Positions 1,122 to 60,175 of a DNA stretch of 64,000 bases are shown piece by piece. Each line of letters begins with the position of its first letter. Positions within the stretch are counted from its first letter, which is position 1. Below the pieces are notes generated by a model. The model had not been told where the DNA came from. It saw nothing but the letters and a program-made list of their open reading frames with translations, and ran no database searches. The position numbers and the translations under genes are program-made. The DNA comes from Eledone cirrhosa (taxonomy: Eukaryota): assembly GCA_964016885.1 (NCBI GenBank), contig OZ024740.1:248248001-248312000 (forward strand), written 5' to 3'.

Positions 1122-1191
<70 letters not shown>

Positions 1192-1226
1192 TTACAGTAA
1201 TCAAAGTTCAGTTTAAGTCATTTATT

Positions 1227-1273
1227 TGCTTACAATTGTTTCCTCCAAACCGAGGTTTGGATTCTTCGGAGCA
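1227..1273 (-). ncRNA. Type I hammerhead, C4 variant (family H2)
   Basis: Reverse complement of 4324-4370. Confidence 0.8.
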
Positions 1274-2820
1274 GTTATTTATAACATACTTGACCTCCTT
1301 TTCAACCCAAGAGACACATAAAACATATGTGCATATTGATCAACAGTGGGGTGACATTCATCAAATGAAATAGCATGGCAATTTACATATAAAGTGTTAC
1401 ATGATAAAAAATAAAGTGTTACATGATAAAATAAAAATAAAATAAAAGCAAGAGTGAAAATAAAGATAAACATGAAGCGTTGGCAGTCTATGAAGATAAA
1501 GCAAGAGGAAAGCTTAGAGTAGTCAGTGCATGAAGCAATTTCCCGTGTAGCATGCACGCTTGTCTTATCTATACATGATTAGAGTGCGTCAGAATGATAT
1601 TTGCAGGGTCATGCAGTTGAAGCAGGCAATTGATCTTATAATATATGCTGAATTATTAAGTTATTTATTCTCATACATCTGTATGATATACAGTCTCGGA
1701 TGCGGGGAAACATCAAAATATCAAAAACCTTCAACATACTAAAAACCTTATTGTATCGTAGGCAAGGTCGTACCACTGTCCTTGCTCACCACACCACTCA
1801 CATAATCCATGAGACGCAATATATATATAGAGAACATGCGTCTATCGTATAATTTGCATTGGTTCAGCATATAGTCAAGCTATAAACGGTATCCAGTCGG
1901 TTCTTAATTAATATATCATGCTGTCCAAATTCCGGAAGTGCCTGAATGATTAAGGGGAACTAATGCGTAAGGGGAGGTAACTAGCTAGTTATTTTAGTTA
2001 CATTACTATGCTAAACTACATTAATGGTGATTCAAATACGTGCCTATCATGTGAAGTTATAACTAATATCTAGAGTATGGTACCCATTTATAAGTTAGAG
2101 GGTTGTTCATTAAGAAGTACAAGGGTGTATATACTAGGATGATTGCCAACCAATAATTAAGGGGTGTCATATCTGAACGTTCTATAAGAGGAGTCGGACT
2201 CTCAAGTCACTGCTCAATGCAAATGTAATACAACAGTAGGACCTGGTATGGTCCCACTATTATATGTCACCCGTTAGGCTCCGGGTCATTGCTTGCCTGC
2301 ATTTCCAGTAAATCTTCGGTATGGTTCGGAGATCCGGTCTCTCATATAAACTAGTCTGGCCATCAGGTAATAGACAACCCCCGTCTCAAATATAAATCAA
2401 TTATGTATCACATCTCCAAGCTAGAGTGGAGTCTATTAATAGGTATTAAAGGAGTCCACATCAAGATGATTACGTGCATAATTCAATGAACTGATCGCCT
2501 ACAGTATATATTCACTTAACAAAACGATTATTTATCTAATCATCAATCTATCTCTTGGTGGTAATCCATGCACAGGACTATGCTATCGCAACCAGTACCG
2601 TGTCCCCAGTTTATACTAATCTTATATTTGTGCAATGCAGAATAAGTAGTTCACGGTCGGTGTATCGGTATTAGAGGTACAAGGGGGTATTCCCAGGGTA
2701 GGTGGCACTCAAACGCTGTCAGTATTATCTTTAGAGTATATAGATGGGTGTGGATGTGGGGTGTAAGGTGTGCTACTGGTGTTAATTGCTAGGGGTGGTG
2801 CCGGTTCCAGTCTGACATTA

Positions 2821-3303
2821 TTATATATAGGGTTTAAAGTTTTGGAACGAGTGTCGGAAGCGGTGTTGGCAATTTGCGAACACTTCTGATTTTTTATTAA
2901 GGAGATTACGTTTAGAGAAGATGATAGTATGGGTCTCTAGTAGACAGAGGTTACAAAATTTATCAGGTGGTTTGTACGATGTTGCACTACCTACCACTTC
3001 CCATTTAAGTGTATATATTTTATTTTTAGTTTTTAGATAGTGTATGTAGCTAGATAGTGAAGTGGAGTTGGCTAGACTGTGTTTTTTGAAAGAGTGGAGG
3101 TGCGAATTGTATCTAGTTTTGAAGCAGTTAGAAGTGGAGCCTATGTAGGTTTCAGAAGAGCTGTTAGTTGTGACTGTACATGAGTATATGATATCCTTGG
3201 TTAAGCATTTTTTATCTAAAGGGCAGGTTCTACTTGATCTACAGTTACAATTACTCTGGGTGCTAGTCTGCCGGTTACTATGCTGTGTAGAAGTTTGGAG
3301 GTT
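2821..3303 (-). pseudogene. PLE C-terminal GIY-YIG endonuclease fragment (Hydra-like)
   Basis: CNCRSSRTCPLDKKC...IIY...YIGSTSNCFKTRYNSHLHSF...CNLCLLE...LLNKKSE...CQH. The ORF's first codons run into the inverted arm. Confidence 0.85.
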
Positions 3304-4323
3304 AGCAATGACCCGGAGCCTACCGGGTGACATATAATAGTGGGACCATACCAGGTCCTACTGTTGTATTACATTTGCATTGAGCAGTGACTTGAGAGTC
3401 CGACTCCTCTTATAGAACGTTCAGATATGACACCCCTTAATTATTGGTTGGCAATCATCCTAGTATATACACCCTTGTACTTCTTAATGAACAACCCTCT
3501 AACTTATAAATGGGTACCATACTCTAGATATTAGTTATAACTTCACATGATAGGCACGTATTTGAATCACCATTAATGTAGTTTAGCATAGTAATGTAAC
3601 TAAAATAACTAGCTAGTTACCTCCCCTTACGCATTAGTTCCCCTTAATCATTCAGGCACTTCCGGAATTTGGACAGCATGATATATTAATTAAGAACCGA
3701 CTGGATACCGTTTATAGCTTGACTATATGCTGAACCACTGCGAATTATACGATAGACGCATGTTCTCTATATATATATTGCGTCTCATGGATTATGTGAG
3801 TGGTGGGGTGAGCAAGGACAGTGGTACGACCTTGCCTACGATACAATAAGGTTTTTAGTATGTTGAAGGTTTTTGATATTTTGATGTTTCCCCGCATCCG
3901 AGACTGTATATCATACAGATGTATGAGAATAAATAACTTAATAATTCAGCATATATTATAAGATCAATTGCCTGCTTCAACTGCATGACCCTGCAAATAT
4001 CATTCTGACGCACTCTAATTATGTATAGATAAGACAAGCGTGCATGCTACACGGGAAATTGCCTCATGCACTGACTACTCTAAGCTTTCCTCTTGCTTTA
4101 TCTTCATAGACTGCCAACGCTTCATGTTTATCTTTATTTTCACTCTTGCTTTTATTTTATTTTTATTTTATCATGTAACACTTTATTTTTTATCATGTAA
4201 CACTTTATATGTAAATTGCCATGCTATTTCATTTGATGAATGTCACCCCACTGTTGATCAATATGCGCATATGTTTTATGTGTCTCTTGGGTTGAAAAGG
4301 AGGTCAAGTATGTTATAAATAAC

Positions 4324-4370
4324 TGCTCCGAAGAATCCAAACCTCGGTTTGGAGGAAACAATTGTAAGCA
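4324..4370 (+). ncRNA. Type I hammerhead, C4 variant (family H2)
   Basis: TGCT-CCGAAGA-a-TCCAAACC tc GGTTTGGA-g-GAAA-CAATTG-TA-AGCA. Palindromic stem III ACAATTGT. Confidence 0.82.
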
Positions 4371-4576
4371 AATAAATGACTTAAACTGAACTTTGATTAC
4401 TGTAATCTCTATATAACTGCTCTGTATAACAACTGATGTTATTACATTGAGCTATTTATCTTACTGGTAATATGATAGTAATTAAAGACTATCTCTCACT
4501 ATTTAGGGTTTGCGTATATATAATATATTACCATCAAAGGTTTTATTGCATACATAACCATAAATAGTACTCTTAA

Positions 4577-7276: not shown

Positions 7277-7594
<318 letters not shown>

Positions 7595-7654
7595 CGTAAA
7601 ATAAGAAAATTAAAAAAAATTTTTTTTAAATTAACTTACTTACTAAAATTTTCA

Positions 7655-7734
7655 CTCCAACTAATTAGTTTCTGCAATGGGATAAAGACAGTTACGTAAT
7701 AAACTGTTGAGAATTTCATTGCGTCATCAGGGAG
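7655..7734 (-). ncRNA. Type I hammerhead (family H3)
   Basis: Reverse complement of 9178-9257. Confidence 0.85.
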
Positions 7735-8195
7735 GTCTATTCTCAGCTAAGTCGCCAGGCAATGCGCGGACACTGGGGATTCATATAAAAATAATAATAA
7801 TTCGGTAAATGGAACAGCTAACGGGGGCTGGATTCCATGCACTGAAAATCTCGCTGTCACTGGTCAAAAGATAGATTCTAAAGAATCAATCACGTGACAC
7901 TGAGGCTAGTCGGTAGGAGTGGGATGGTAAGATGACAGAAGCCTACTAACACACCAAAAAATTTAGTAGTGGTTTTGGCAGGTTTGCTCGACAAAGTGAT
8001 TTGGAGATAAATATAGAGAATTTAGTATATCTACTAACATATGCGTGCAGATGTACGCTAATGTCAGCAAATACACAGGTTATGTCATAGTACCTAGGTG
8101 GTTCAATGCAGGAGGATGCAGAACAATAATATAAAAGACTCAAAATAAGAAAATTTTAAAAAAATTAAAAAAAAATTAACTTACTAAAATTTTCA

Positions 8196-8275
8196 CTCCA
8201 ACTAATTAGTTTCTGCAATGGGATAAAGACAGTTACGTAATAAACTGTTGAGAATTTCATTGCGTCATCAGGGAG
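8196..8275 (-). ncRNA. Type I hammerhead (family H3)
   Basis: Same motif, second unit. Confidence 0.85.
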
Positions 8276-8735
8276 GTCTATTCTCAGCTAAGTCGCCAGG
8301 CAATGCGCGGACACTGGGGACTCATATAAAAATAATAATAATTCGGTAAATGGAACAGCTAGCGGGGGCTGGATTCCATGCACTGAAAATCTCGCTGTCA
8401 ATGGTCAAAAGATAGATTCTAAAGAATCAATCACGTGACACTGAGGCTAGTCGGTAGGAGTGGGATGGTAAGATGACAGAAGCCTACTAACACACCAAAA
8501 AATTTAGTAGTGGTTTTGGCAGGTTTGCTCGACAAAGTGATTTGGAGATAAATATAGAGAATTTAGTATATCTACTAACATATGCGTGCAGATGTACGCT
8601 AATGTCAGCAAATACACAGGTTATGTCATAGTACCTAGGTGGTTCAATGCAGGAGGATGCAGAACAATAATATAAAAGACGTAAAATAAGAAAATTTAAA
8701 AAAATTTTTAAAAAATTAACTTACTAAAATTTTCA

Positions 8736-8815
8736 CTCCAACTAATTAGTTTCTGCAATGGGATAAAGACAGTTACGTAATAAACTGTTGAGAATTTCAT
8801 TGCGTCACCAGGGAG
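8736..8815 (-). ncRNA. Hammerhead (H3) with core mutation CTGGTGA, probably inactive
   Basis: Plus strand reads tcaccag instead of tcatcag (A6G). Confidence 0.75.
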
Positions 8816-9177
8816 GTCTATTCTCAGCTAAGTCGCCAGGCAATGCGCGGACACTGGGGATTCATATAAAAATAATAATTCGGTAAATGGAACAGCTAGC
8901 GGGGGCTGGATTCCATGCACTGAAAATCTCGCTGTCAATGGTCAAAAGATAGATTCTAAAGAATCAATCACGTGACACTGAGGCTAGTCGGTAGGAGTGG
9001 GATGGTAAGATGACAGAAGCCTACTAACACACCAAACAATTTAGTAGTGGTTTTGGCAGGTTTGCTCGACAAAGTGATTTGGAGATAAATATAGCTGTTC
9101 CATTTACCGAATTATTATTATTTTTATATGAGTCCCCAGTGTCCGCGCATTGCCTGGCGACTTAGCTGAGAATAGAC

Positions 9178-9257
9178 CTCCCTGATGACGCAATGAAATT
9201 CTCAACAGTTTATTACGTAACTGTCTTTATCCCATTGCAGAAACTAATTAGTTGGAG
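9178..9257 (+). ncRNA. Type I hammerhead (family H3)
   Basis: CTCC-CTGATGA-c-GCAATG...ACAGTT/AACTGT...CATTGC-a-GAAA-CTAATTAG-TT-GGAG. Palindromic stem III ACTAATTAGT. Confidence 0.87.
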
Positions 9258-9721
9258 TGAAAATTTTAGTAAGTAAGTTAATTTTTTAAAATTCTTTTAA
9301 AATTTTCTTATTTTACGCCTTTTATATTATTGTTCTGCATCCTCCTGCATTGAACCACCTAGGTACTATGACATAACCTGTGTATTTGCTGACATTAGCG
9401 TACATCTGCACGCATATGTTAGTAGATATACTAAATTCTCTATATTTATCTCCAAATCACTTTGTCGAGCAAACCTGCCAAAACCGCTACTAAATTTTTT
9501 GGTGTGTTAGTAGGCTTCTGTCATCTTACCATCCCATTCCTACCGACTAGCCTCAGTGTCACGTGATTGATTCTTTAGAATCTATCTTTTGACCAGTGAC
9601 AGCGAGATTTTCAGTGCATGGAATCCAGCCCCCGCTAGCTGTTCCATTTACCGAATTATTATTATTTTTATATGAGTCCCCAGTGTTCGCGCATTGCCTG
9701 GCGACTTAGCTGAGAATAGAC

Positions 9722-9801
9722 CTCCCTGATGACGCAATGAAATTCTCAACAGTTTATTACGTAACTGTCTTTATCCCATTGCAGAAACTAATTAGTTGGA
9801 G
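9722..9801 (+). ncRNA. Type I hammerhead (family H3)
   Basis: Same motif 544 bp downstream. Confidence 0.87.
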
Positions 9802-9977
9802 TGAAAATTTTAGTAAGTAAGTTAATTTTTAAAAATTTTTTTAAAATTTTCTTATTTTACGTCTTTTATATTATTGTTCTGCATCCTCCTGCATTGAACC
9901 ACCTAGGTACTATGACATAACCTGTGTATTTGCTGACATTAGCGTACATCTGCACGCATATGTTAGTAGATATACTA

Positions 9978-11628: not shown

Positions 11629-12196
11629 ATGTAAGGTTGTGCATATGTGAGTGTATATACATATATATATACAATGTAATTTATAGAAATATTTTTACTT
11701 TTTTATATCTTTTATGTGTGTATATATAGATGCGTAGTTTTCTTGATGGAATTCTGTTAGAATAACGCCAAGTACCTTATTCACTCCATCTTTCTATCCA
11801 TCTCACGCATATGGATATGTAATATACAACAATTCAGGCTATAATATTGTAGTGACCTACATTCCGCGGGCTCACATACATTCTCTGTGCGTGATTTGGC
11901 TCAGTTCAGCCAATCAGCGCCAGTAGAAGAGGATGTATCCCTACGCGCCCCGAGGAAGAAATTCCCCGCGAAGATTTGAAGAATCTCTCTCTTGTACCGG
12001 GAACTTCGAGCCAACAACACGCATAATGTAACGGTGAGATTTTGCACCCCTAGCCTCGCCGGCTTAACGGCGCAATGGCACATTCCCTTTTGTAACCTCT
12101 TCTTATCTGTAACTTCAACCATATAAGTTAACAAACATTGTTTGTGCTACATCAAAAATAAACATACATTTCTTCTCTAATTTCTGCTGTTGAAAT

Positions 12197-14295
12197 TATA
12201 GCGAGATTACTGGTTGTATGAATGTAACAAAACGAGACAATGTTTGTGTATATAATATTTAATTAACGGTAGATAGAATACTTGACATGTCAAAGATAGA
12301 TGTTAGAATGAAACAAAGTTAGTAGTTACCGTTTTGATTGCCAGGCAAACGCGGCTGGCAGAGGGCGCCTGGCTAAGGCCAGGCGCCTGTTGGCCAAATT
12401 AATGGCAGAGCCAAATGAGAAGACTCTTGACCTGGTGCCGAAAAGGCAAAGAGAGAAAGGAAGCCTAAAGTTGTTAGTTTTATAGGGCTCTGACCGGAAG
12501 TTGCAGAAAGGGTTCCACTTCCCGTCTAGATCCTAATCAAAACAAGGGAGACAACCGCTACATAACCTTCCGCCAGAATTTTAGTGTATAAAAATCGAAA
12601 TGAAAATATGTAGCAAGTTGGCGAGAATGTTGTAACAGGCATGAAAATTACGACAAAAGAATGTTTGGAAAAATCAATGATAGATATCAAGGTAGCCAAC
12701 CGCTCTTGGCCAGAGAACGACTGGACATCCATCTATCCATCACCCAAAGATACAATGTAATAAAGTAAAAGTAATAGAAGAGCTCAAAGTTCAAAATATA
12801 GTTCACAGGTGTGCAATCACATGACAGCAGGAAAGAAAGTGTGTTCCAGAGAATGAATGCAGGTGGTTTCTGTTCTGTGGTATATCGTGAAATGTCCAAC
12901 CTCCGAATGGATTTTCTCACAGGAAGAGTGCTGCAAAAATGAATTCTCTGGCTTTGGTGAAGCTGTATTGATGTATTGCTGTTGCTGCTGCTGTTGTCTC
13001 GCTGAGTGAGCGTATTCGGTGTTTAAATTCACAGTAAAAAATTTTTTTTTAGAAAAAATGAGTTGCGCAAAGTGCTAGAAATAGTAGCCGAAGTTGATGG
13101 TCGATGTTGAGAATGCGTTGACCTGGAAGGGTCAAGAGGCCAGCGACCAGAGAAATAAGCATTCTTAATAAATGCGCGGTTATCAACTGTAAATTTACAT
13201 TGTAAATTTATAAACCGGCAAATAGAAGAATATAGCTTAAGGCTGAAGAATCCTTGGGGGAGAAATGCTATCTCTGGCGTGCGGCTGTCTGTGAGTAGAG
13301 ACATCTCAGTGAATCGAGAATTTATGCTGCCTACACGTGCCAATACAAGGTTGAAAAAAAATATTTCTAACGCGCGAGAAAATGATAGTGCAATTTTGAA
13401 AGTGACAATGATGAAAAAGAAAGGCTTCAATCAGCATAATTATAGGTGTGAACTTTGGAAAAAAACAAAAAACTAGAACGATGAAGAAAACGATGAACAA
13501 AAGGCAATGGTTCATCGAAAATAAATGTTCCTGTTGAAATGTTTTTTAAAGAATATCAAATTTCTTTTTTTTTTTTTGTGTTTTGAAAGAGTTCGTTGTA
13601 AGAAACGAGAAACATATATATATATCGTGAAATGTTTTTTTTTTGTTTTGAAAGTGTTCGTTGTAAGAAACGAGAAACATATATATATATATTGGTGAAA
13701 TGCGACAGTTAATTGATGCGTGAGAGAAAAAGTATGTCTGTGCGAATTCCACATGTGCGTGTGTGCGTGTCCTTGAGTATTTTCATAGTTTGTCGCTAAA
13801 TTTGCTGTGTATTCGTAATGTTACTCACAAAACCAGATGTGCTATTTTTTTCTTTTTTTTTGGGGGGGGGGGGGGGTGACCCTTATAGCGATGAACGGCT
13901 GCGTGTTCGTATCACGTCAGGGTTACCAATATAGCGAGATTACTGGTTGTATGAATGTAACAAAACGAGACAATGTTTGTGTATATAATATTTAATTAAC
14001 GGTAGATAGAATACTTGACATGTCAAAGATAGATGTTAGAATGAAACAAAGTTAGTAGTTACCGTTTTGATTGCCAGGCAAACGCGGCTGGCAGAGGGCG
14101 CCTGGCTAAGGCCAGGCGCCTGTTGGCCAAATTAATGGCAGAGCCAAATGAGAAGACTCTTGACCTGGTGCCGAAAAGGCAAAGAGAGAAAGGAAGCCTA
14201 AAGTTGTTAGTTTTATAGGGCTCTGACCGGAAGTTGCAGAAAGGGTTCCACTTCCCGTCTAGATCCTAATCAAAACAAGGGAGACAACCGCTACA
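12197..14295 (-). mobile_element. Non-autonomous LTR retrotransposon (family B), recent
   Basis: Two 366-bp LTRs (12197-12562, 13930-14295) that appear identical; TSD AAAT; PBS on minus strand at 13928 downward; purine tract GGCGGAAGG next to the other LTR. Confidence 0.93.
13897..13928 (-). promoter_or_regulatory. Extended tRNA-Trp primer-binding site (32 nt)
   Basis: Plus strand GGCTGCGTGTTCGTATCACGTCAGGGTTACCA matches the 3' 32 nt of metazoan tRNA-Trp as recalled (GGCTGCGTGTTCGAATCACGTCGGGGTCACCA) at 29/32, including CCA. Confidence 0.85.
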
Positions 14296-14749
14296 AAATC
14301 ATTATTATGTTACTCGTGTCTCAATAATATCTGTAATCCATGCTGCTGGAATTGGCGACCTGACGAAAGGAATATTGTAAATACAAAGATGGTAAATAGA
14401 TCGAGGGACCTTCCCTCACGTCTATGTCGACAAGACAATCCAACGAAGATACTATCATTTTACCACACTGGCAACTAACAACCTTCAATCATCTACCCCG
14501 TTAAAGTGGCGACGACTACTCATTCTATCCTGCTAAAATATATTGTTGAAACAAAAAATATATAAACATTGTCAGTCTAAAGAAACTTACATGTATACAC
14601 ATGCATATACGCGTCTACTGAGGACCAATTTCTGATGACAAGTTAGTTATATTAGTAATATTCTTGATATACAATGCCCTTAATTAGAAACACTTATTAG
14701 AAAGGAGTATTTAGGAAAAGTACAAAGAAGTTAGTACACATATAATAAT

Positions 14750-27746: not shown

Positions 27747-27748
<2 letters not shown>

Positions 27749-28890
27749 AACGCGGGTAAAATTCCCGAGATCCATGGACGAGTTCTCTCCAGCGGTCTCT
27801 GTCCCTCATCATCGCTGCCATGTCCTGCGTCTCCAACAGACCAGTGTCTGTCCTTAGGGCATCAACATACGTTAACCTTGGTCTTCCTCTTCTAGTGTGT
27901 CCATGTAGGGGTTCCCACAGGAGCACTGAGTGCAATGTCAACTCTGGATGTCGGTGAGCATGTCCAGCTAACCTCAGTCTCCTCTGTGTCACTTTTGAGC
28001 TGACTTTTGGGATGCTCCCATACAGCTCTGAGTTTTTCATCCTCAGTGTATACTGATTAATGTTCAGAGCCATCCTCAGCATTCTCGTGTAGCACCCATC
28101 CACCATCTGAGTGAGTTTCTTGGTCAGTGTCCAAGTCTCAGACCCATACAGCAGTACAGACTCCACTACAGCAATGAAGAGGCGGATTTTCAGGTCTTTA
28201 CGAAGGTCCGACTTCCACACCGATCTCAAGCTGTGGCACGCCGCCCAGGCTTTGCTCTTCCTCTCAACCACATCATCTTCCGTATTCCCAATCTTTGCTC
28301 CCAAATACAGGAAGCCCTCAACCAATTCTAGCGGCTTCCCGCCTACATTAGTGATCCCCTCTGGCCTCTCAACATTCTCTACCAGATATTTTGTTTTAGT
28401 CTCATTCATTCTCAGCCCCACACTCATCGACACAGTCTCAACCTCCCGTATCAAATCCTCTGCCTCCTTCACTGCATTTGTCACCAAAACTATGTCGTCG
28501 GAAAATTCAGCATCCGATACCTTTTTCGCTTTAACTTTCCTGCTCTGAGCCGGTGCTACAGTAAAGCCAGAGTCCTGGTGTTTCTCCAGTGCAAGGCGCA
28601 TACAATAGTCCACTACGATGATAAAAAGGTAGGGAGCCAATGTATCTCCCTGTAGCACTCCAGCCAGTATCTCAAAGAACTCTGTCATCCCATCAGGTGT
28701 AATGACTTGGGCTTTGGTGTTGGTGTAGAGCAGTGATATCAGGTCCACTATCTTCTTGGGGATTCCATAAGGCTGTAAGATCTTCATCAGGCAGTAACGG
28801 TCCACAGAATCAAAGGCCTTCCTAAAGTCAATGAAAACCATGGCCGCAGGAAGGCACTTTGCTCTAGCTCCCTCTAATATCCTCCTCAAC
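27747..28890 (-). mobile_element. RTE-type LINE 3' part, RT ORF still open (381 aa), 5'-truncated
   Basis: FIDFRKAFDSV; GVLQGDTLAPYLF; FSDD; LLYGSETW; RGRPRLTYVD. Stop codon abuts (TA)n. A 75-bp 3' copy lies at 55616-55690. Confidence 0.92.
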
Positions 28891-30200
28891 ACTGGAGAAA
28901 ATGGGTCTAATTTTCAGGTTGGGTCCTTCCTTGTGGGTTTTGATCAGATGGTAGAAGTCGGGCAGCCTGCTGTTTCTCGTTATGTAATTGTACCGGAATC
29001 TCTTCGGAAGCCTTCGTCTGGCGCAGATGTTGGTCCGGGCGATGAGGATCCGGTTCTCTATCAGCGTGGGTGTAATTCCAGTGACTTCCGAGTAGAGACT
29101 GTCGTCGTTGAGATGTTGGTGAGCTAGGTAGTTGTAGGCCTCTCTGGTGATATCACAAAACACTTTTCCCTTGTCCGATGGGAGGTATACAAGGTTCTTA
29201 GATCTGAGGTTGTTTAGGGTATTGAGTTGTGGTCTGGAGAGGTCGTGGTGAGTATGTGTGTGTTTTTGTAGGATGTTAGTAATGGTAAGTTTTAACCGTG
29301 AGAGTTTAATCTCGAGATCACGATTGAAGGGTGGAAGGTGTAGTAAGTTGCCGAGATGGTAGGAGGGGAATTTTGAGTTCATTGGGAGGTCTCTGAAGTG
29401 TCGCTGAAAGACAATCACTTGAGCTTGTAGGCGGCTCTGTAGAAATTGGCCTCAATGTCGAGTATAAGTCTGTCGTCAAGTTGCTGCGTCAGGATGAACC
29501 TGAGACGGAGGAGTTGCATTTCATCGTCGGAAAGAGACCCGGTTAGATCTGTGACGAGGTGTAGGTTGTCATAAGTCTGCAGGTCAAGGAGGGTGGTGTT
29601 CATAGAGTAGGTGGGGTTAGTGTTGTCGTGTTTGTGGCGTTCAACATGTTGAACCCCGACTCCATTAGTGTTAGAGGTGATCTGGTAGGGAGGAGTGTTG
29701 TCATCAGGTTTAGCGCTATTCCTAGCTTTTGTCTGTTTTTTAAAGGTCCAGTAGAATTTAAGTTTGAGACGTTCTTTCTCAAATTGGACCCGGGCATGGT
29801 AGCACTGCTCGATAGTGGCTGTAGTAGCATGGAGCAGGATATCGGGTGTTATTCTAAGTAAAAGCATCTGTTCTGAGATTGTCCGTGTGTAGGTCGAGTT
29901 GGCGGTGTAAATTTCGTCTGAATTTTTTTATGCAGGTCTGGTGTATATGTTTGAGGAATCCTGAAGAATTGAGGCCTCAAGGGAGGCGGATATTTCTGAT
30001 GGTGTTGTGGATTACATCATTCTTCAGACATTGTTTAAGAAAATTAATTTGGCAGCCAATCGCTGCTCGTTTATCCGATAATCTACAAAGTCACTTCATG
30101 TTGCAAACTGGTCCTGGCTCAGGTGTAAGGATAACAAAGAGTTGTAGTTTGCTTGAAGCATTGTGGAATAAGAAATACAAAATTAATTTATATCGAAGCT
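28891..30200 (-). mobile_element. Penelope/Poseidon-like PLE, N-terminal half
   Basis: YLPSDKG; NSRLPDFYHLIKTHK..KIRPI. Paralogous to 49060-50260. Confidence 0.85.
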
Positions 30201-36273: not shown

Positions 36274-39200
36274 ACTGCCAGAGACTTCAAATTCACTCGT
36301 TTACCCGGGACAAAACGCTCACTCCCTACAAACAACAACAGCCGACACCAAAGCACATATTCCAAAATAACACCACCACAACCTCCAATAACTTCACCAA
36401 ATGCTAAAACACAGAATCCCCAAATCTGCCGCTATTCCCAACAAGACAGATTATGTCTGCAGCGTGATTGTCCTTTTACCCATTTCCGGGGATCCGACAC
36501 ATAAATAAAAATAAAATAAAAACCCTAACCATTACACCAATACCCACAATTACAGTCACTTACAGTTCCCTAAACAGGAAATCTCCTCCTCCTTTTTAAC
36601 CAAAATGAATCTTGCAAAAGAACTACAAATACAAAAACATTCTAGCCATCACCAAACACTACGCTCCACTACCACCCCACTGCACACACTCCAATTGCTG
36701 ACATTAACAAACAAACCTCCAAAACAACTAAAATCAACCACCACTGTAGCCTCAACATTTTTGCTTAATGCTCAAGACATCAGCCCTTCCACCAATACTA
36801 AAAAAAGGAAGATAAAATTTCTTGAGGATTAGGCTGATGACCATCCTAACCACATCCCTTTCTTCATCCTCACCGAAACCCATCTCAATCCCCTCCACTT
36901 GCAAGTCGAGGTGAAAGTTAAGAATTTCAAAGCTATCCGTGCTGATCGTGCTGGCAGAAGAAAGGGTGGGACTGCCATTTTTGTACAGGATTTTTTTCAA
37001 CAGAGGCAAATAACTTATTTTCCAATGGATACTGTGAAGCAATCACTGTGTACAGTAAAACCAACAACTTAATAGTCTTTGGGCTCCATAGGCCACCCCA
37101 AACGTCTCTACCGTGCTTCAAGGAATGCCTCAACAGCATAAAGTGTTTCATCCCAACATTGTCACCCTCGCAGCATGTGAGACTTCAACCTCCCCGGTGT
37201 TGACTGGTCCACAAACAGCTAGATACCAGGTCTTTTCACCTCAACCCCTGACATTCTTGTCAGTAGAATCGCTTCTTGACTTCATTGATGAGTTTTTCCT
37301 GTCCCAACTTGTGCTCGAACCAACAAGGTGCCACAAAAACATCTTGGACCTAATGTTCAGTGACCACACTGACACTATCCACAATATTGTAGTGGAAAAA
37401 ACTCTACTCTCAGACCATGACATGGTTCTCTGTGATCTGAGATTCCACCGTCCAAAAAGCAAACCCAATGATATCTCTCCAGCCTATCCATTTGACACTG
37501 TGGATCTTCATAATGCAAACTGGGAAGCGATCAATCATGATCTTGCATATGTCGATTGTTGTTTCACACACACTCACACACCCACTAACATAAAAAAGTC
37601 CTGGTAGTCATTTGTAGACATTGTAACAAATATATGTGCAAACATCTGTAAACAAATCTAAGTGTAGAATCTCTAGAAATAGAAAAAACACTTAGAAAAA
37701 TTAACAAAAGAATTCAACTGAAACACTGCCAGCAGCAACACACTCATTTGACTTACATCACTAGAATCGAAAAAACACAACCTCCAAAACAGCATAATGT
37801 CCATCATCAACAACGAAAGAGCAGCTGAAGAGAAATGGGCCATTGAGAAAATCAAACTCAATCCCAAAGTGTTCTTTTCATTTGCGAAAAAACACAAAGT
37901 CCCTGGCTCCACTGTTGGCCCTCTAATTGATGAAAATGGCACTCTCCAAGATAGTGATAAAGACATCAGTGAGATACTGCAGAAACAATACTGCACTGTT
38001 TTCAGCAATCCTGATATGGCCGATTTGGGCTGTATCAGTGATGTTAATCCCCAACACACTATATCAGACATAAAGAAACTAAACACAATTCAGCAGTAGG
38101 CCCCGATAGGTTCCCTGCTCGTGTCCTGAAGATGTGTCGACACCAACTTGCATATTCTCTTGCTAATATGTGGAGGAACTCACTGGATGCTGGTTATATT
38201 ACCAGAAAACTTAATATCCCAGTCGGTTGTCCCAGTTTTCAAAAAGGTAAACAAGTCCCTTTACCGCCCGATCTCACCTTTCTCTCATACCATTAAGGTA
38301 TTTGAAAGGGTGGTGAGATCACGAATAACTCACTTTCTTGAAAGCAACAATCTGCTGAATTCCAACCAACATGGGTTCCGTAATGGAACGGATTGCCTAA
38401 CGCAGCTACTACATCACTTTGATGACATTTTGAGAGCTTTGGGGGAGGGCTTCAACATTGATGTCATCTACCTTGATTTCAGCAAGGCCTTTGACAGGGT
38501 TGATCACAACATTCTACTGAGAAAACTATCCAACATTGGTGTCTCTGGAAAGTTGCTGCAGTGGATTAAGTGTTTCCTGTCAAACAGAGCCCAACATGTT
38601 GTCGAAGGAGTACAATCCAGCCCAGCCAAAGTCAGTAGTGGTGTCCCACAAGGCACTGTGTTGGGTCCACTTCTTTTCATTATCTATATTAATGACATTT
38701 CTGATATCATCAAGCACAGCAGCATAAACATCTTCGCAGATGATTCCAAGCTCCAGAAGGTCACCAATGGCATGGGTGACTGGATATGCCTCTAGTCAGA
38801 TCTACTGGCTGTTAACCAATGGGCGGAAAAGAACAATATGCTACTGAACGAGGATAAATTTGAGTTAATCCACTTTCGAAAAGAAGAGGCCCGGAAACTC
38901 CCATACTACCTTCCTTCAGGTGAAACTCTTGTGGCATCCAAGAACATCAGAGACTTGGGAGTAATTGTAGACAACAACATAAGCTGGGCCATCATATAAA
39001 CAGCAAAGTTGACATGGCCCGCAAAATGTGTTCCCGGATTCTCAGAACCTTCCAGTCAAGAGATTTCCACACTGCTATCCTTCTCTTCTCCACTTTCGCA
39101 CGACCACACCTTGAATACTGTTGTCGACTGTGGTCTCCCCACATGAAACAAAGTATCATGAAAATTGAAGCTCCTCAAAGGTCAACCACTAAAAAGATAG

Positions 39201-43947: not shown

Positions 43948-44281
43948 TATAGCGTGAAGTACTGGGTTGTATGAATGTAACAAGGAATACATTGTTTGTG
44001 TAGATAATATTTAATTAACAATGGTAGATAGTATAGTTGAGATGTCAAAGCAATAGATGATAGAATGAAGCAAAGTTAGTAGTTACCGTTTTGATTGCCA
44101 GGCAAACGCGGCTGGCAGAAGACGCCTGGCGAAAGCCAGGCGCCGGAAGGGCAATGAGAGGCAGAGAGCCGAAAGCTATTCGTTTTATAGGGCTCTGACC
44201 GGAAGTTACAGAAAGGGTTCTACTTCCCGTCTAGATGTTAATCTATTGGTGTTGTGAGTCACAAGGGAGACAACCGCTACA
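43948..44281 (-). mobile_element. Solo LTR (family B relative)
   Basis: TATAGCG...CGCTACA, TSD GGCT, homologous to 12197-12562. Confidence 0.92.
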
Positions 44282-48109: not shown

Positions 48110-49237
48110 TCATCTGATAGCTCTGCGGATGGCTGTTGTTGTTTCGTCGCTGAAGTGTGGGAGCTTCAGGAAGCAGGTGTTAGGGCCTCGGGTGTGGTGT
48201 CCTCTGTTGTTTCTGGCACAGTTCGCGGTGGACGTCGGGTATCCGTTCAGTTTAAGTACTTCCAGGAAATGTGTGGCGTATGTGTCTCGGTCTCTAGCAT
48301 CGATGCATTTGTTCCGGATACGTGTTAGTTCGTTCCTTATGTATCCGAACTTAGCGCTGGCTGGGAGGGCCGATCTGAAATGTACGAACAGGACTCTGCT
48401 GGCGGCTTTTTTATAGAAGCAGGTGTGGATGTTGCCTTCCTCTGTTACCCTGAGTTGGAAGTCCAGTAGGGATAGGGATCCGCTGTCATCGGGGTGTTCG
48501 ATGCTGAACTTTATACTGGCGTCCATGCTGGAGAATGTTGTGTATATTTTATCCGCTTCCTCACGGGATGATGTAAGGATGAGTATGTCATCTACATATC
48601 GGGTGAAGAAGGTATAGGAATGGCAGGTGTTGAGGGCTCGGCATTCTAGCTGGTTCATATAGTTGATGGCCAGCAGGCCCGATAGGCTGGATCCCATGGG
48701 TAATCCTGTTGTCTGTCTGTATGTGTGGTGGTGGAAGGTGAAGTACGTGTTGTCTACTGTGAAGGACAAAAGCTGGTGTATGTCCGTCGGATGGAGGCCG
48801 TAGCAGTGGATGTCCTCTGCGACCACGCAGTCCGTAAATAAATCGACAGCTGGATGAGCGGAGACTGTAGTGTAGAGGGAGACAACGTCGAGGCTAAAAG
48901 CGTATCTATTTAATTTAAGTTGTTCTGGCTGGAGTTGGTGTAGTTTACGTATGACCTCATCGGAGCTACTGACATGCCCGGGAAAGGTGAAGAGTAGAGG
49001 CTTGAGGACCTGGGAGAGGAGCCAGGAGATTTTGTATAGGGGTCCTTCTATGCTAGAGACGATGGGTCTTATTTGTGACTTAGTACTATTCTTGTGGGTC
49101 TTGATGAGGTGATAGAAAGTGGGCAGTCTGCTATTTCTAGTGGTGTAGTTGAACTTAAATTTATTTGCGAGTTGTCTTCTCCTACAGATGTCGAACCAGA
49201 TGGAGTTGGCCTGTTTTTCGATCTGGGCTGCAGTCAT
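48110..49237 (-). pseudogene. PLE reverse transcriptase core
   Basis: FYHLIKTHK; IRPIVS; SLDVVSLYT; GLPMGSSLSGLLA; RYVDD; SLLDF. Confidence 0.92.
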
Positions 49238-50321
49238 GTCCGGGATCTCTGTATATAGTTCGTTGTCGCTTAGGTGTTCAAAGGCTAGGTTGTTGTATGT
49301 GGCTTGAGAGATGACACAAAACTATTTACCTTTGTCGGATGGTAAGTATATGAGTTCCCTATTCCACGGGTTCTTCAGGGCGAGTTGTTGTGTCCTGGAG
49401 AGGTTTGGGGCTATCTTCTTCTGTTTCCGTAAGATGTTAAATACGGAATGTTTTAGCCTCGAGAGTTGTTCTTCCAGCTCGCGGTTGGCAGGCGGTGTAC
49501 AGAGTGGGCGGTCCAGTTGGTATATCGGGAATCTGGCTGTGTTAGATTCCGTGGTGTTGTTGCCGAGGGTCGATATTCATTTTAGTTGGTAGGCAGCCCG
49601 ACAGAAATTCGTTTCTATGTCGAGCCATGATTTGTCGTCCAGTCTCTGTTTCAATATGAACTTGGGACCTAGGCTGAGGAGGTCTAGTTCATCTTGGGAG
49701 AGGGATCCTGTCAAGTCTGTGACGAGGTGTTTTGCGTCAGGTGTGTTGTTGGTCGGGGCGCCGCTAGGTTCGATGTTGGTACCGTCTTGTTCGCCTCTGT
49801 TGGTGCTTAGAGTTGGGTTGTTGTTAAGACGGGTTGTTGTTAAGACGGTCAGCCGTGCTGAGTTTGAGAAATTTTTGCGTTAGGCGTATTTTCTCGTAGT
49901 CTCGGCGATGGTGGTATGACCTGTCTATAGCGGCGGAAATTACTCTGGGCAGAGGTTCTAGGATTTCAGCGAGTTGTGGTACAAGGCTGGAAATAGTCCG
50001 TATGTGTTGTTGTAGCGTGCTGTGTCGGTGTTGTATAAGTTTTCTTAGGCAGAATTTTTGTATGTAGCTAAGTGATCATTTGAGGCCTGGTGATTTGAAG
50101 CATGTTGGTAGGTGCAAGTTTTTGATAGTTTTGGGGATGATGTTATTCAGGCATCGTTTGAGGAAGTTTATTTGGCAGCCGGCTTTGGCGCGCTTTTCAG
50201 ATAGCTGGAAGAGTTTCTTTACAGTTGTAAACTGGGCCTGGCTCAGGCGTAAGGAAAGGCGGAAGCATTGCGTAATGAGGTATAAACGTTTGGAGTTGGA
50301 AGGCCAAGAGAATGCAGGTAT

Positions 50322-57610: not shown

Positions 57611-58544
57611 GACGGAAGGACCGGTGAAATTGCTCGGGGGCTGGTTCGGTCCAGGGCCTGTAACCTTATAAGTATCCAACTAAATTCCTTCATGCTCTCC
57701 ACCACTGCAGTCCCACATGTTTACTGCTCTGTAACTATTGCTTTCATTGTACCATAGCACAACAAATAGATGTTCGGTTTGTCGAATACCTTTTTACTTA
57801 ACCCTATCGTCTTGGCTTTCGTGGGTTGAACTTTTACTCTCAGGCACCCAATTAAGTTAAACCCCTGGTAATCTACGACGAATTTCTTTTATAAGCACAA
57901 AATGTAGACACCATCCCCAGGCTTAGGTATTCTGTACGTCTCTGTACTGTTTCAGAAAGGAGGGATAAACATGGCAAGCTATGTTTAGAATCCCGAGCAA
58001 CGGGCCATTCATCTAGTACTGTACTATACTATATATTTTCAACAGTAATACTCGAATTCCTTTTACAAGCTACCAGGCAAGCAAGTTCGTTTATCGTATT
58101 CTGCTTGTAATGTCTATAAATTCACTTATTTTTCTTTGCCGCCCAAAGACATAGATAGACATCTAGACTTACTCAGTATTTATACTTACTTATCTATCTC
58201 ACATTCCCACCCCCACACCATCATAGACTTATTGACCAATCAAACCACAACATACCTTCATCCATCACCCGCGCAACAAATGTTACTAGTAGTTATAATT
58301 ATCTTTCTAAAACCATTCTCCTCTTGAGAAATCTGTCTATTGTTGTCTATGGATGAGCTGAAGATGATGAACAACTTGGGATGAATATGAACCCACACGT
58401 TTCCAGGCGACTATGCGAATCCTTAATTCAAATACAGAAAACATACACCCACCCCCTACTCCGCAAAAGCCCACCCTCCCCTATTGACGTCAAACCCTCA
58501 AATTCCGAATAGGCACCATCAATGTGAGCATAATGAAAGGAAGA

Positions 58545-60175
58545 ACATCCGCTTACTCACCCCAATCTGGGTTGCCAGACGAATTTAAGGGTAGGTTTTA
58601 TGAGTCCCGAATGCACACTACTACTCTAACAAATGACAATGACTTTCTACTTGTTGCAGGGGACTTTAACAGACATGTTGGGAAACATAGTGATGGTTTC
58701 TACAGTGTCCATGTAGGCTATGGGTTTGACGTAAAAAATGAAGAAGGTTACAGGCTTCTAGAATTCTCCGACACCAATGACTTGTCGATATGTAACACAA
58801 ACTTCAAAAAATCCGAAAACCACCTGATCACCCATAGATCCGGGGAGCCTACTAACCAGATAGATTTTATCCTTACCAAAGGACGAGATAGATGGATGGT
58901 TCTAAACACGAGAGCCTTCCCGGGAGAGGAATGTACCTCCCAACACAGCCTAGTAGTCAGCTACCTCACTGTCAGAGCTAGATGAACTTTGAAACAAAAG
59001 GCAACCTGCAGAAGAAAGATCTGGAAGCTGAAAGACCCCTCAGCCAGTAACAAATTTAGAGATATTTTACTTGACGCTTACGATGGTAAAGAACAGATAG
59101 AGGCATTCAATGTAGAAGACTACTGGGAGTTCCTAAAAAATAACCTACTAAAGGTGACAGACGAAATCTGTGGTTGGGACAAGACTACAGGGAGAAGGGA
59201 GTGACTTGGTGGTGGAACAATAAGGTAGATGAAACAATTAAGGCCAAGAGAGATGCATGGAAATAATGGAAGAACGGGGCAAGAAGGGTACATTACATAG
59301 AGACCAGGAGGGAAGCTAGGCGACAAGTATACTTTAGAAGGGAAGCGGAGGATAACAATTTCAAACATGTTTTGCAACGTGAGGACCAGAAACAGGATTG
59401 CGAGGCAGTGTGTAGAGAAAATTGTGATGTCATCGGTGAGAAGTGCGTCCGGGATGATAAAGGTGCACTTGCCATCACAGATGCTGAGAATAAAGATGTG
59501 TGGAAGAGCCATTATGAAAAATTACTGAATGAAGAGAATGCATGGGAGAAAGAGACCCTACAAAAGCACTATTGAGGCTCTCTCTCTTCCTTGTGAGACA
59601 GTTACAGGAAAAGTACCGAGCTAAAAATAAGCCCCTCTACCTAGCATTTGTTGATCTGGAGAAAGCTTTCGACAGAGTGCCCCGTGACATAATTTGGTGA
59701 GTTCTTAGAAAAGTAGGAGTAGATGAATGGCTTGTGAAGGCTGTACAAGCCATGTATTGAGGAGCAGTCAGCAAAGTTAGGATTAACAATGACTATAGCG
59801 AGGAATTTAGTGTACAAGTTGGCGTCCACCAGGGCTCTGTCCTTATCCCACTCCTGTTTATTATCGTTTTGCAGGCTATAAGAGAGGAATTTAAGACTGG
59901 CTGCCCATGGAAACTTCTGTACGCGGATGATCCATGGAAACTTCTGTACGCTCATAGTTGAATCCATAGTGGAAGTAGAGAAGAAATTCCAAACATGGAA
60001 GCGGAGACAAGAAAGAAGAGGTCTTAAAGTCAACCTGACAAAGACTAAGGTCCTAGTAAGTAGAAGAAAAAACATAACCCAGATCCCCTCGGGAAAATGG
60101 CCGTGTTTAGTATGTAGGAAAGGCATTAGTAGAAACTCCATCGTCTTCCCCAAATGCAAACTGTGGGTACACAAT
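58545..60175 (+). mobile_element. RTE-clade LINE, decayed APE plus RT
   Basis: AYSPQSG; VAGDFNRHVG; NQIDFIL; SQHSLVV; FVDLEKAFDRVP; GVHQGSVLIPLLF; YADD. Confidence 0.9.

What the first reader, a model, noticed from the sequence alone, without database searches (positions are those of the whole stretch)
13897..13928. PBS extended through the tRNA-Trp T-arm with a mismatch exactly at position 58
Seen: next to the LTR lie 32 nt matching the tRNA-Trp 3' end including CCA, versus the usual ~18. Counting from A76 (13928), position 58 is 13910, which reads T where the tRNA has A (GTTCGTAT versus GTTCGAAT). Established: plus-strand copying of the primer normally stops at m1A58, and RTs misincorporate opposite m1A. 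Inference: this is a fossil of RT read-through of m1A58 fixed in a recently mobile element (LTRs look identical). It may now give extended primer pairing or a tRNA-fragment target. The tRNA sequence is from memory, and the two other mismatches would be G-U or A-C in the duplex.
Basis: partly seen in the sequence, partly recalled or inferred. Interest (0 to 1): 0.72.

Follow-up and report, generated by a model that had tools for sequence, protein, structure and literature searches.

The report
Retrotransposon inheriting an over-copied primer tRNA
About 500 copies of a jumping gene carry a 32-letter match to the tRNA that primes their copying instead of the usual 18, with one wrong letter where tRNAs normally bear a methyl mark, likely the inherited trace of a single old copying overrun that the element survived.

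Summary
Observation confirmed. [quoted passage not shown] It matches host tRNA-Trp positions 45-76 at 29 of 32, with T at 58. Of 495 family matches, 487 have T58, 8 C and none A; 83 of 85 gene-like tRNA-Trp copies have A58. Other CCA-tailed over-copies in this genome are non-A at 58 in 11 of 41. New here: the extension is followed by a second LTR end and a relic PBS, intact in older copies, so the over-extended strand likely re-primed on the LTR end and duplicated the junction. The fossil is old. Positions 67/72 revert repeatedly to tRNA letters while T58 stays, so copying now likely stops at 59. The extension is about four times less variable than the interior, hinting at selection. Against: two damaged host gene copies carry T58, and m1A58 was not measured. 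Read-through with changes at 58 is published for defective HIV-1 proviruses; an amplified family is the variant. The scan noted this family before elsewhere in this genome, and a tRNA-Pro case in another genome.

The parts
12193..12196 (.). Target-site duplication AAAT (left copy)
12197..12562 (-). 3' LTR, 366 bp
   Evidence: identical to the 5' LTR
12566..12574 (-). Purine-rich stretch 3 nt before the 3' LTR, probable polypurine tract
   Evidence: sequence; function inferred from position
12820..12957 (-). Remnant of coding sequence: 80% over 50 aa to the end of the second ORF of the coding relative L191
   Evidence: tblastn E 4e-22
13873..13881 (-). Relic of the original PBS (8 of 9 match the PBS start; 12 nt intact in older copies L095, L123, L134, L152)
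13882..13896 (-). Second copy of the LTR (U5) end plus spacer; 8 nt identical to 13930-13937
   Evidence: (shuffle p 0.007)
13897..13910 (-). PBS extension, complement of tRNA-Trp 45-58; 13910 is the position-58 mismatch
13911..13928 (-). Canonical 18-nt PBS, complement of tRNA-Trp 59-76, with family changes at 67 (13919) and 72 (13924)
13930..14295 (-). 5' LTR, 366 bp
14296..14299 (.). Target-site duplication AAAT (right copy)

Best explanation
This is the primer-binding site of a non-coding LTR retrotransposon family whose founder likely arose when reverse transcriptase copied the tRNA-Trp primer past the presumed m1A58 to about position 45, likely inserted a wrong base opposite position 58, and likely restarted on the LTR end, leaving the 32-nt site followed by a second LTR end and a relic of the old site. 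Shown: the anatomy (LTR end, PBS of 32 nt, second LTR end, relic PBS), T58 in 487 of 495 matches, A58 in host genes, an excess of changes at 58 in other over-copies, and repeated return of positions 67/72 to tRNA letters. Inferred: that host A58 is methylated; that the T came from misincorporation; that the jump was to the U5 end of the minus strand; that present-day plus-strand copying stops at 59, so positions 45-58 are inherited from the element's RNA; and that the extension is kept because it adds pairing to the tRNA's T arm and variable loop, where position 58 costs nothing because m1A cannot pair.
For: Family: 495 matches, 8 non-T at 58, all C; 100 of the first 100 listed copies chosen only by the 18-nt PBS keep the extension. 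Host genes: 83 of 85 A58. Independent signal: 41 CCA-tailed copies reaching position 44 or further have A 30, T 6, C 3, G 2 at 58; Fisher p 2e-9 against other positions and 7e-5 against gene copies. Their 5' ends cluster at 35-41 (30 of 41) and 27-29 (7 of 41), none past 27, as copies of a mature, modified tRNA would. A fold-back copy has T58 in both arms (L108). Duplication: older family members keep 12 nt of intact second PBS after the second LTR end; the coding relative L191 has an ordinary 18-nt PBS and its LTR end, spacer and PBS start are identical over 22 nt to the relic junction of L123. The same restart on the own LTR end is seen in L098, L099, L107, L179 (shuffle p 0 of 300 each) and L239. 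Reversion: 18 of the first 100 listed have tRNA-type C72, 10 of them with G67 too, only 1 has G67 alone; 17 keep T58, 1 has C. On a tree of 78 copies without the PBS, C72 needs 19 changes for 25 rows. In the double-PBS copy L151 the LTR-side site is tRNA-type and the inner one family-type. Conservation: diversity 0.014 in 45-58 against 0.059 in the interior; 2 of 77 interior windows are as low.
Against: m1A58 in this species was not measured; it rests on its known conservation (PMC13191261). Two of 85 gene-like copies have T58, so A58>T also arises in DNA. Most over-copies (30 of 41) and family B (28 of 28) read A58, so read-through need not leave a mark, and one founding event cannot be proved to be a misincorporation. 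The in-vitro signature for m1A followed by A is low in C (PMC4787781), whereas 3 of 11 changes here are C. Only 7 of the 43 loci scored show a clear restart on their own LTR end (p at most 0.013); family B shows none. Reversion at 67/72 could also come from recombination with other tRNA-Trp-primed elements; the oldest cluster may hold G67/C72 as the ancestral state. The tree is FastTree only, with four long rows, on a sample that I enriched for C72 copies.
Confidence: 0.78

Rival explanations
1. Read-through was faithful (A58) and T58 is an ordinary point mutation in an early master copy, kept because nothing pairs with m1A58 anyway.
For: 30 of 41 over-copies read A58; masters did fix other PBS changes at 67 and 72; A58>T occurs in 2 of 85 gene copies.
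Against: T58 is shared by members whose LTRs are only 66-73% identical to the window's, so the mutation would have to be very early; no A58 member among 495; it is the only fixed change in 14 positions and a transversion; T is the commonest wrong letter at 58 in other over-copies (6 of 11).
Confidence: 0.14
2. The extension was copied correctly from a variant host tRNA-Trp that has U at 58.
For: Two gene-like copies have T58: L169 and one in L252.
Against: L169 has A57 and a D-stem change; the L252 copy has A49 and two anticodon-loop changes; the family has G57 and G49. 0 of 85 gene-like copies match 45-58 fully. C58 and G58 over-copies have no gene template. Only 22 stretches were read for genes, so others may exist.
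Confidence: 0.04
3. The extension works now as a long primer over-extension site: RT reads through position 58 often, and T58 is rewritten in each cycle.
For: The extension is unusually uniform; 4 of 8 C58 copies also have C72 against 17 of 96 T58 copies (p 0.05); in family C positions 47 and 58 vary among six copies in ways that match host gene variants at 47.
Against: About 89 of 495 copies (18%, extrapolated from the first 100) returned to C72, yet none has A58, the commonest read-through outcome; upper 95% bound about 3%. C58 at 1.6% is within the family's background (3.7% non-majority letters in the interior).
Confidence: 0.04

Closest known systems
Delayed second-strand transfer with tRNA-Lys3 inserts in HIV-1 proviruses (PMC12657518; passages and section 11 read)
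   Same: RT runs past m1A58, tRNA sequence is integrated next to the PBS, inserts of 7-54 nt, and 5 of 44 carry a change the authors call U58A.
   Different: There all are defective proviruses and the jump goes downstream, deleting sequence. Here the jump likely went back to the LTR end, duplicating the junction, and the product was amplified to about 500 germline copies.
Primer over-extension sequence of lentiviruses and spumaviruses (PMC13191261, section 10 read; PMC8599865, passages)
   Same: Sequence just after the PBS that is complementary to the primer beyond position 58.
   Different: That sequence serves stops at positions 54-55; here complementarity runs 14 nt to position 45, and the base counts argue against present use for read-through products in this family.
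CsRn1 clade of Ty3/Gypsy LTR retrotransposons (PMC2582038, passages)
   Same: tRNA-Trp PBS, 4-bp target duplication, CHCC motif in the Gag of coding relatives.
   Different: This family has lost gag and pol and has a 32-nt PBS with a duplicated junction.
In-vitro RT signature of m1A (PMC4787781, passages)
   Same: Arrest one base before m1A plus misincorporation on read-through.
   Different: Here the record is in genomic DNA, made by an endogenous RT; C changes are more common than the paper's m1A-A cluster suggests.

Membership tests
LTR retrotransposon, non-autonomous | Two direct LTRs, target-site duplication, PBS and polypurine tract, no complete gag-pol | tested here: met
   366-bp identical LTRs, AAAT duplication; only ORF of 120 aa or more in the element (13029-13430) has no Pfam match
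CsRn1 clade of Ty3/Gypsy | PBS for tRNA-Trp | tested here: met
CsRn1 clade of Ty3/Gypsy | 4-bp target-site duplication | tested here: met
   window; L014, L147, L149, L155, L159
CsRn1 clade of Ty3/Gypsy | Gag with CX2HX9CX3C (CHCC) motif | tested here: inconclusive
   The element has no gag. The motif is in L191 (LTR 77-80% and 3' interior 71% identical to the element) and in family B's L186; not found in 6 of the 8 ORFs scanned
CsRn1 clade of Ty3/Gypsy | Pol order PR-RT-RH-IN | tested here: inconclusive
   Met in families B and C (L186, L189); L191 holds only gag and protease; no full-length partner with this family's LTR was found
CsRn1 clade of Ty3/Gypsy | RT groups with CsRn1 in a phylogeny | not tested
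   no reference RT set was fetched
Read-through (delayed second-strand transfer) product | tRNA sequence contiguous with the PBS, including non-encoded CCA, beyond position 58 | tested here: met
   0 of 85 gene-like copies are followed by CC; the element has CCA and positions 45-58
Read-through (delayed second-strand transfer) product | Junction where the over-extended strand rejoins the element's own sequence | tested here: met
   second LTR end and relic PBS
m1A58 misincorporation mark | Primer tRNA is methylated at A58 in this species | not testable with these tools
   no tRNA sequencing or mass spectrometry data were examined
m1A58 misincorporation mark | Excess of mixed substitutions at position 58 in independent RT copies but not in genes | tested here: met
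   11 of 41 against 2 of 85
Primer over-extension sequence (functional) | Read-through products transfer onto it, so tRNA letters beyond 58 are re-copied | tested here: not met
   0 of 495 with A58 despite C72 in 18 of 100

The most novel reading that the evidence does not exclude
A reverse-transcription error that is a dead end in HIV founded a successful retrotransposon family: the captured T-arm complement became a selected second grip on the primer tRNA that lets the canonical PBS carry mismatches (67, 72) and fold into a hairpin whose loop only the full tRNA can open, escaping 18-22-nt tRNA fragments; and the many over-copies in such genomes are a readable in-vivo map of tRNA modification sites (58, 37, 26).
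Probability: 0.2. Interest if true: 0.8.

Novelty: new variant of a known kind. Interest (0 to 1): 0.52.

Why it matters
Read-through of m1A58 is described as blocking strand transfer and integration (PMC8599865) and has been seen only in defective HIV-1 proviruses in the papers read here. This family shows a route by which the product survives (restart on the LTR end) and spreads, and at least two coding families in the same genome also amplified with long PBSs. It gives a natural assay of how far the primer is copied in vivo: marked positions inside the 18 nt revert, the one just outside does not. It also suggests that genome assemblies hold a record of tRNA modifications for species with no tRNA sequencing.

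Tried and rejected
ARAGORN finds no tRNA gene in the window and Rfam gives no match at gathering score in 12000-14500: the segment is not a tRNA gene or known RNA. A tRNA-derived SINE or lone retropseudogene was rejected because the segment sits in PBS position and orientation in a two-LTR element. A single old clade as the only source of tRNA-type 67/72 copies was rejected (10 changes for 12 rows, at least 8 forced by well-supported branches). The near match of 13893-13895 to tRNA 42-44 is better explained as part of the second LTR end. A search for a full-length coding partner with this family's LTR found none among 15 fetched of 40 matches. C58 as a sign of renewed read-through is not established (p 0.05, confounded by older copies). 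The place look-up of earlier findings returned nothing. Modification status and expression were not examined with sequencing reads. Literature: eight searches listed no paper on an amplified retrotransposon family with such a site; only titles and abstract starts were seen for papers not named above, most subscription journals are not covered, and no supplements were read.

Full report
The observation. Window 13897-13928 reads on the + strand as tRNA positions 45-76 with CCA; counting back from 76, position 58 is 13910 and is T. It lies one base from a 366-bp LTR (13930-14295) that is identical to a second LTR (12197-12562); the element is on the - strand and is flanked by AAAT on both sides. 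The window holds no tRNA gene. Host tRNA-Trp(CCA) genes were found by pattern and ARAGORN. The segment matches the common form at 29 of 32 (58, 67, 72 differ) and one A67 gene at 30 of 32.

What the element is. It is 2.1 kb with no gag or pol. A relative, L191, has LTRs 77-80% identical, a 3' interior 71% identical, gag (DUF7041) and protease ORFs and a CHCC motif. tRNA-Trp priming, a 4-bp duplication and CHCC Gag are the marks of the CsRn1 clade of Ty3/Gypsy elements (PMC2582038, passages). I file it as a non-autonomous derivative of that kind; an RT tree was not made and no full-length partner with this LTR was found in 15 fetched of 40 matches.

Position 58 in the family and in genes. A family-specific pattern gave 495 matches; the same pattern barring T at 58 gave 8, all C. 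Choosing copies by the 18-nt PBS alone gave 400 matches, and all of the first 100 listed keep the extension, with 10 substitutions in 1400 letters at 45-58 (counted by eye). In 22 stretches that cover the two gene clusters and five single sites, 83 of 85 gene-like copies have A58 and none is followed by CC. Two have T58: L169 (A57, D-stem change) and one in L252 (A49, two anticodon-loop changes).

Independent evidence for a mark at 58. A pattern with up to 2 mismatches found 89 places; 41 loci are CCA-tailed copies reaching at least position 44 (the two arms of L108 count once, L249 and L056 were left out for lacking CC, and gene-like rows were left out). At 58 they have A 30, T 6, C 3, G 2, against 22 of 1189 non-gene letters at the other 29 positions and none at A44, A59, A62, A73 (p 2e-9). 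Their 5' ends fall at 35-41 in 30 and at 27-29 in 7, none beyond 27. Positions 37 and 26 are common RT-blocking modification sites (recalled), though fold-back of the anticodon stem explains the second cluster as well. Five of the 41 belong to one family, so the count is not fully independent. All lie against sequence that looks like an LTR end. By contrast, a survey of exact 18-nt sites found 369; about 67 of the first 100 listed do not run through the T arm (counted by eye): the textbook stop is the rule here.

How the product was rescued. After the extension the element carries 15 nt that copy its LTR end and spacer (13882-13896), then a worn PBS start (13873-13881). In older members (L095, L123, L134, L152) that second PBS is intact for 12 nt, and the junction of L123 is identical over 22 nt to the LTR end, spacer and PBS start of L191, which has an ordinary 18-nt site. 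The simplest reading, inferred, is that the over-extended plus strand could not pair at the PBS, restarted on the LTR-end sequence of the minus strand and copied the junction again. Clear restarts on the own LTR end are seen in L098, L099, L107, L179, L103, L134 and the window (7 of 43 loci scored) and in L239; most loci and family B show none.

Old fossil, normal stop today. Members with LTRs only 66-73% identical to the window's share the extension, most with T58, whereas 25 of 42 typical copies have no mismatch between their LTR parts: the family is young in its insertions and old in this feature. Among the first 100, 81 have A67/T72, 10 G67/C72, 8 A67/C72 and 1 G67/T72. On a FastTree of 78 copies built without the PBS, C72 needs 19 changes for 25 rows and G67 11 for 15 (sample enriched for such copies, four long rows). 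So the letters inside the 18 nt likely return to the primer's again and again, yet 17 of these 18 keep T58 and none of 495 has A. Copying likely stops at 59 and 45-58 are inherited from the element's RNA. Recombination with other elements is a rival source of the reversions, and G67/C72 may be ancestral in the oldest cluster.

Is it used? In 30 copies not chosen for the extension, diversity is 0.014 at 45-58, 0.059 in the interior and 0.11 in the LTR; 2 of 77 interior windows are as low, although the extension holds two CpGs. Computed pairing to unmodified tRNA is -27.7 kcal/mol for the window's 18 nt (-36.3 for a perfect site) and -24.8 more for 45-57. Selection for extra primer pairing is therefore plausible but untested. 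The region is predicted to fold into a hairpin (z -2.6). 3' tRNA fragments of 17-19 and 22 nt repress LTR elements through the PBS (10.64898/2026.01.22.698655, passages); whether that matters here is unknown.

Comparison with what is known. The stop one base before m1A58 and the failure of over-extended strands are established for retroviruses (PMC8599865, passages; PMC13191261, passages and section 10). Integrated read-through products with 7-54-nt tRNA inserts, 5 of 44 changed at 58, are reported for defective HIV-1 proviruses (PMC12657518, passages and section 11). m1A causes arrest and misincorporation in vitro, with low C when followed by A (PMC4787781, passages); T fits, three C changes fit less well. 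Eight searches listed nothing on an amplified family with such a site; this rests on titles and abstract starts, and supplements were not read. Two earlier unchecked notes of this scan say much the same: one on this family elsewhere in the genome, one on a tRNA-Pro case with a second partial PBS in another genome. I saw them after stating my reading; they are not independent support.

Verdict. Real, and a new variant of a known process. Read-through origin: about 0.95. T58 as a misincorporation rather than a later mutation or a variant template: about 0.8. A selected role for the extension: perhaps even odds. Interest 0.52.

Noticed in passing
window 43948-44281 (-): Solo LTR of an older subfamily of the same element, 73% identical, with 4-bp duplication AGCC.
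   Followed up: yes
L099, L104, L106, L114, L180, L056 (family C): Coding Gypsy family whose PBS runs 39-40 nt to tRNA position 37/38; position 58 is A in four and T in two, position 47 C, T or A as in host gene variants, hinting that its extension is still re-copied from tRNA.
   Followed up: partly
L033, L186 and relatives (family B): Coding family with a 32-nt PBS also ending at position 45 but with A58 in 28 of 28 matches; L051 ends at 45 too, so 44/45 may be a preferred stop.
   Followed up: partly
L117, L128 (family D; 12 of the first 100 rows): Unrelated family with only four extra tRNA-like letters (55-58, T at 58), then a second LTR end and a relic PBS: same anatomy, shorter overrun; the four-letter match could be chance.
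   Followed up: partly
L108 and L096: L108 is a palindrome centred on the tRNA anticodon loop with T58 in both arms; L096 has changes at both 37 and 58 and folds back onto its own LTR.
   Followed up: partly
L149, L151: Fresh tandem duplications of the whole extended PBS through the 8-nt repeat of the LTR end.
   Followed up: partly
window 13866-13929 (-): PBS, extension, second LTR end and relic fold into one predicted hairpin (-18.5 kcal/mol, z -2.6) with the complement of tRNA 45-52 in the loop; covariation not tested.
   Followed up: partly
L034: Family B leader joined at the PBS to the LTR of another family (that of L101), a possible recombinant.
   Followed up: no
G000:C4 277.40-277.45 Mb and 353.39-353.49 Mb: Two dense clusters of tRNA-Trp genes, many decayed; 30 of 85 gene-like copies are unchanged apart from positions 47, 57, 67.
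   Followed up: partly
window 1187-4410: 1115-nt inverted arms, 99% complementary, 994 nt apart; the one ORF tested has no Pfam match.
   Followed up: no
window 7585-9935: Two head-to-head arrays of a roughly 540-nt unit, 97-99% alike.
   Followed up: no
window 27747-28910, 38130-38792, 48110-49318, 58488-58982: Fragments with RVT_1 or endonuclease domains, probably LINE pieces.
   Followed up: no
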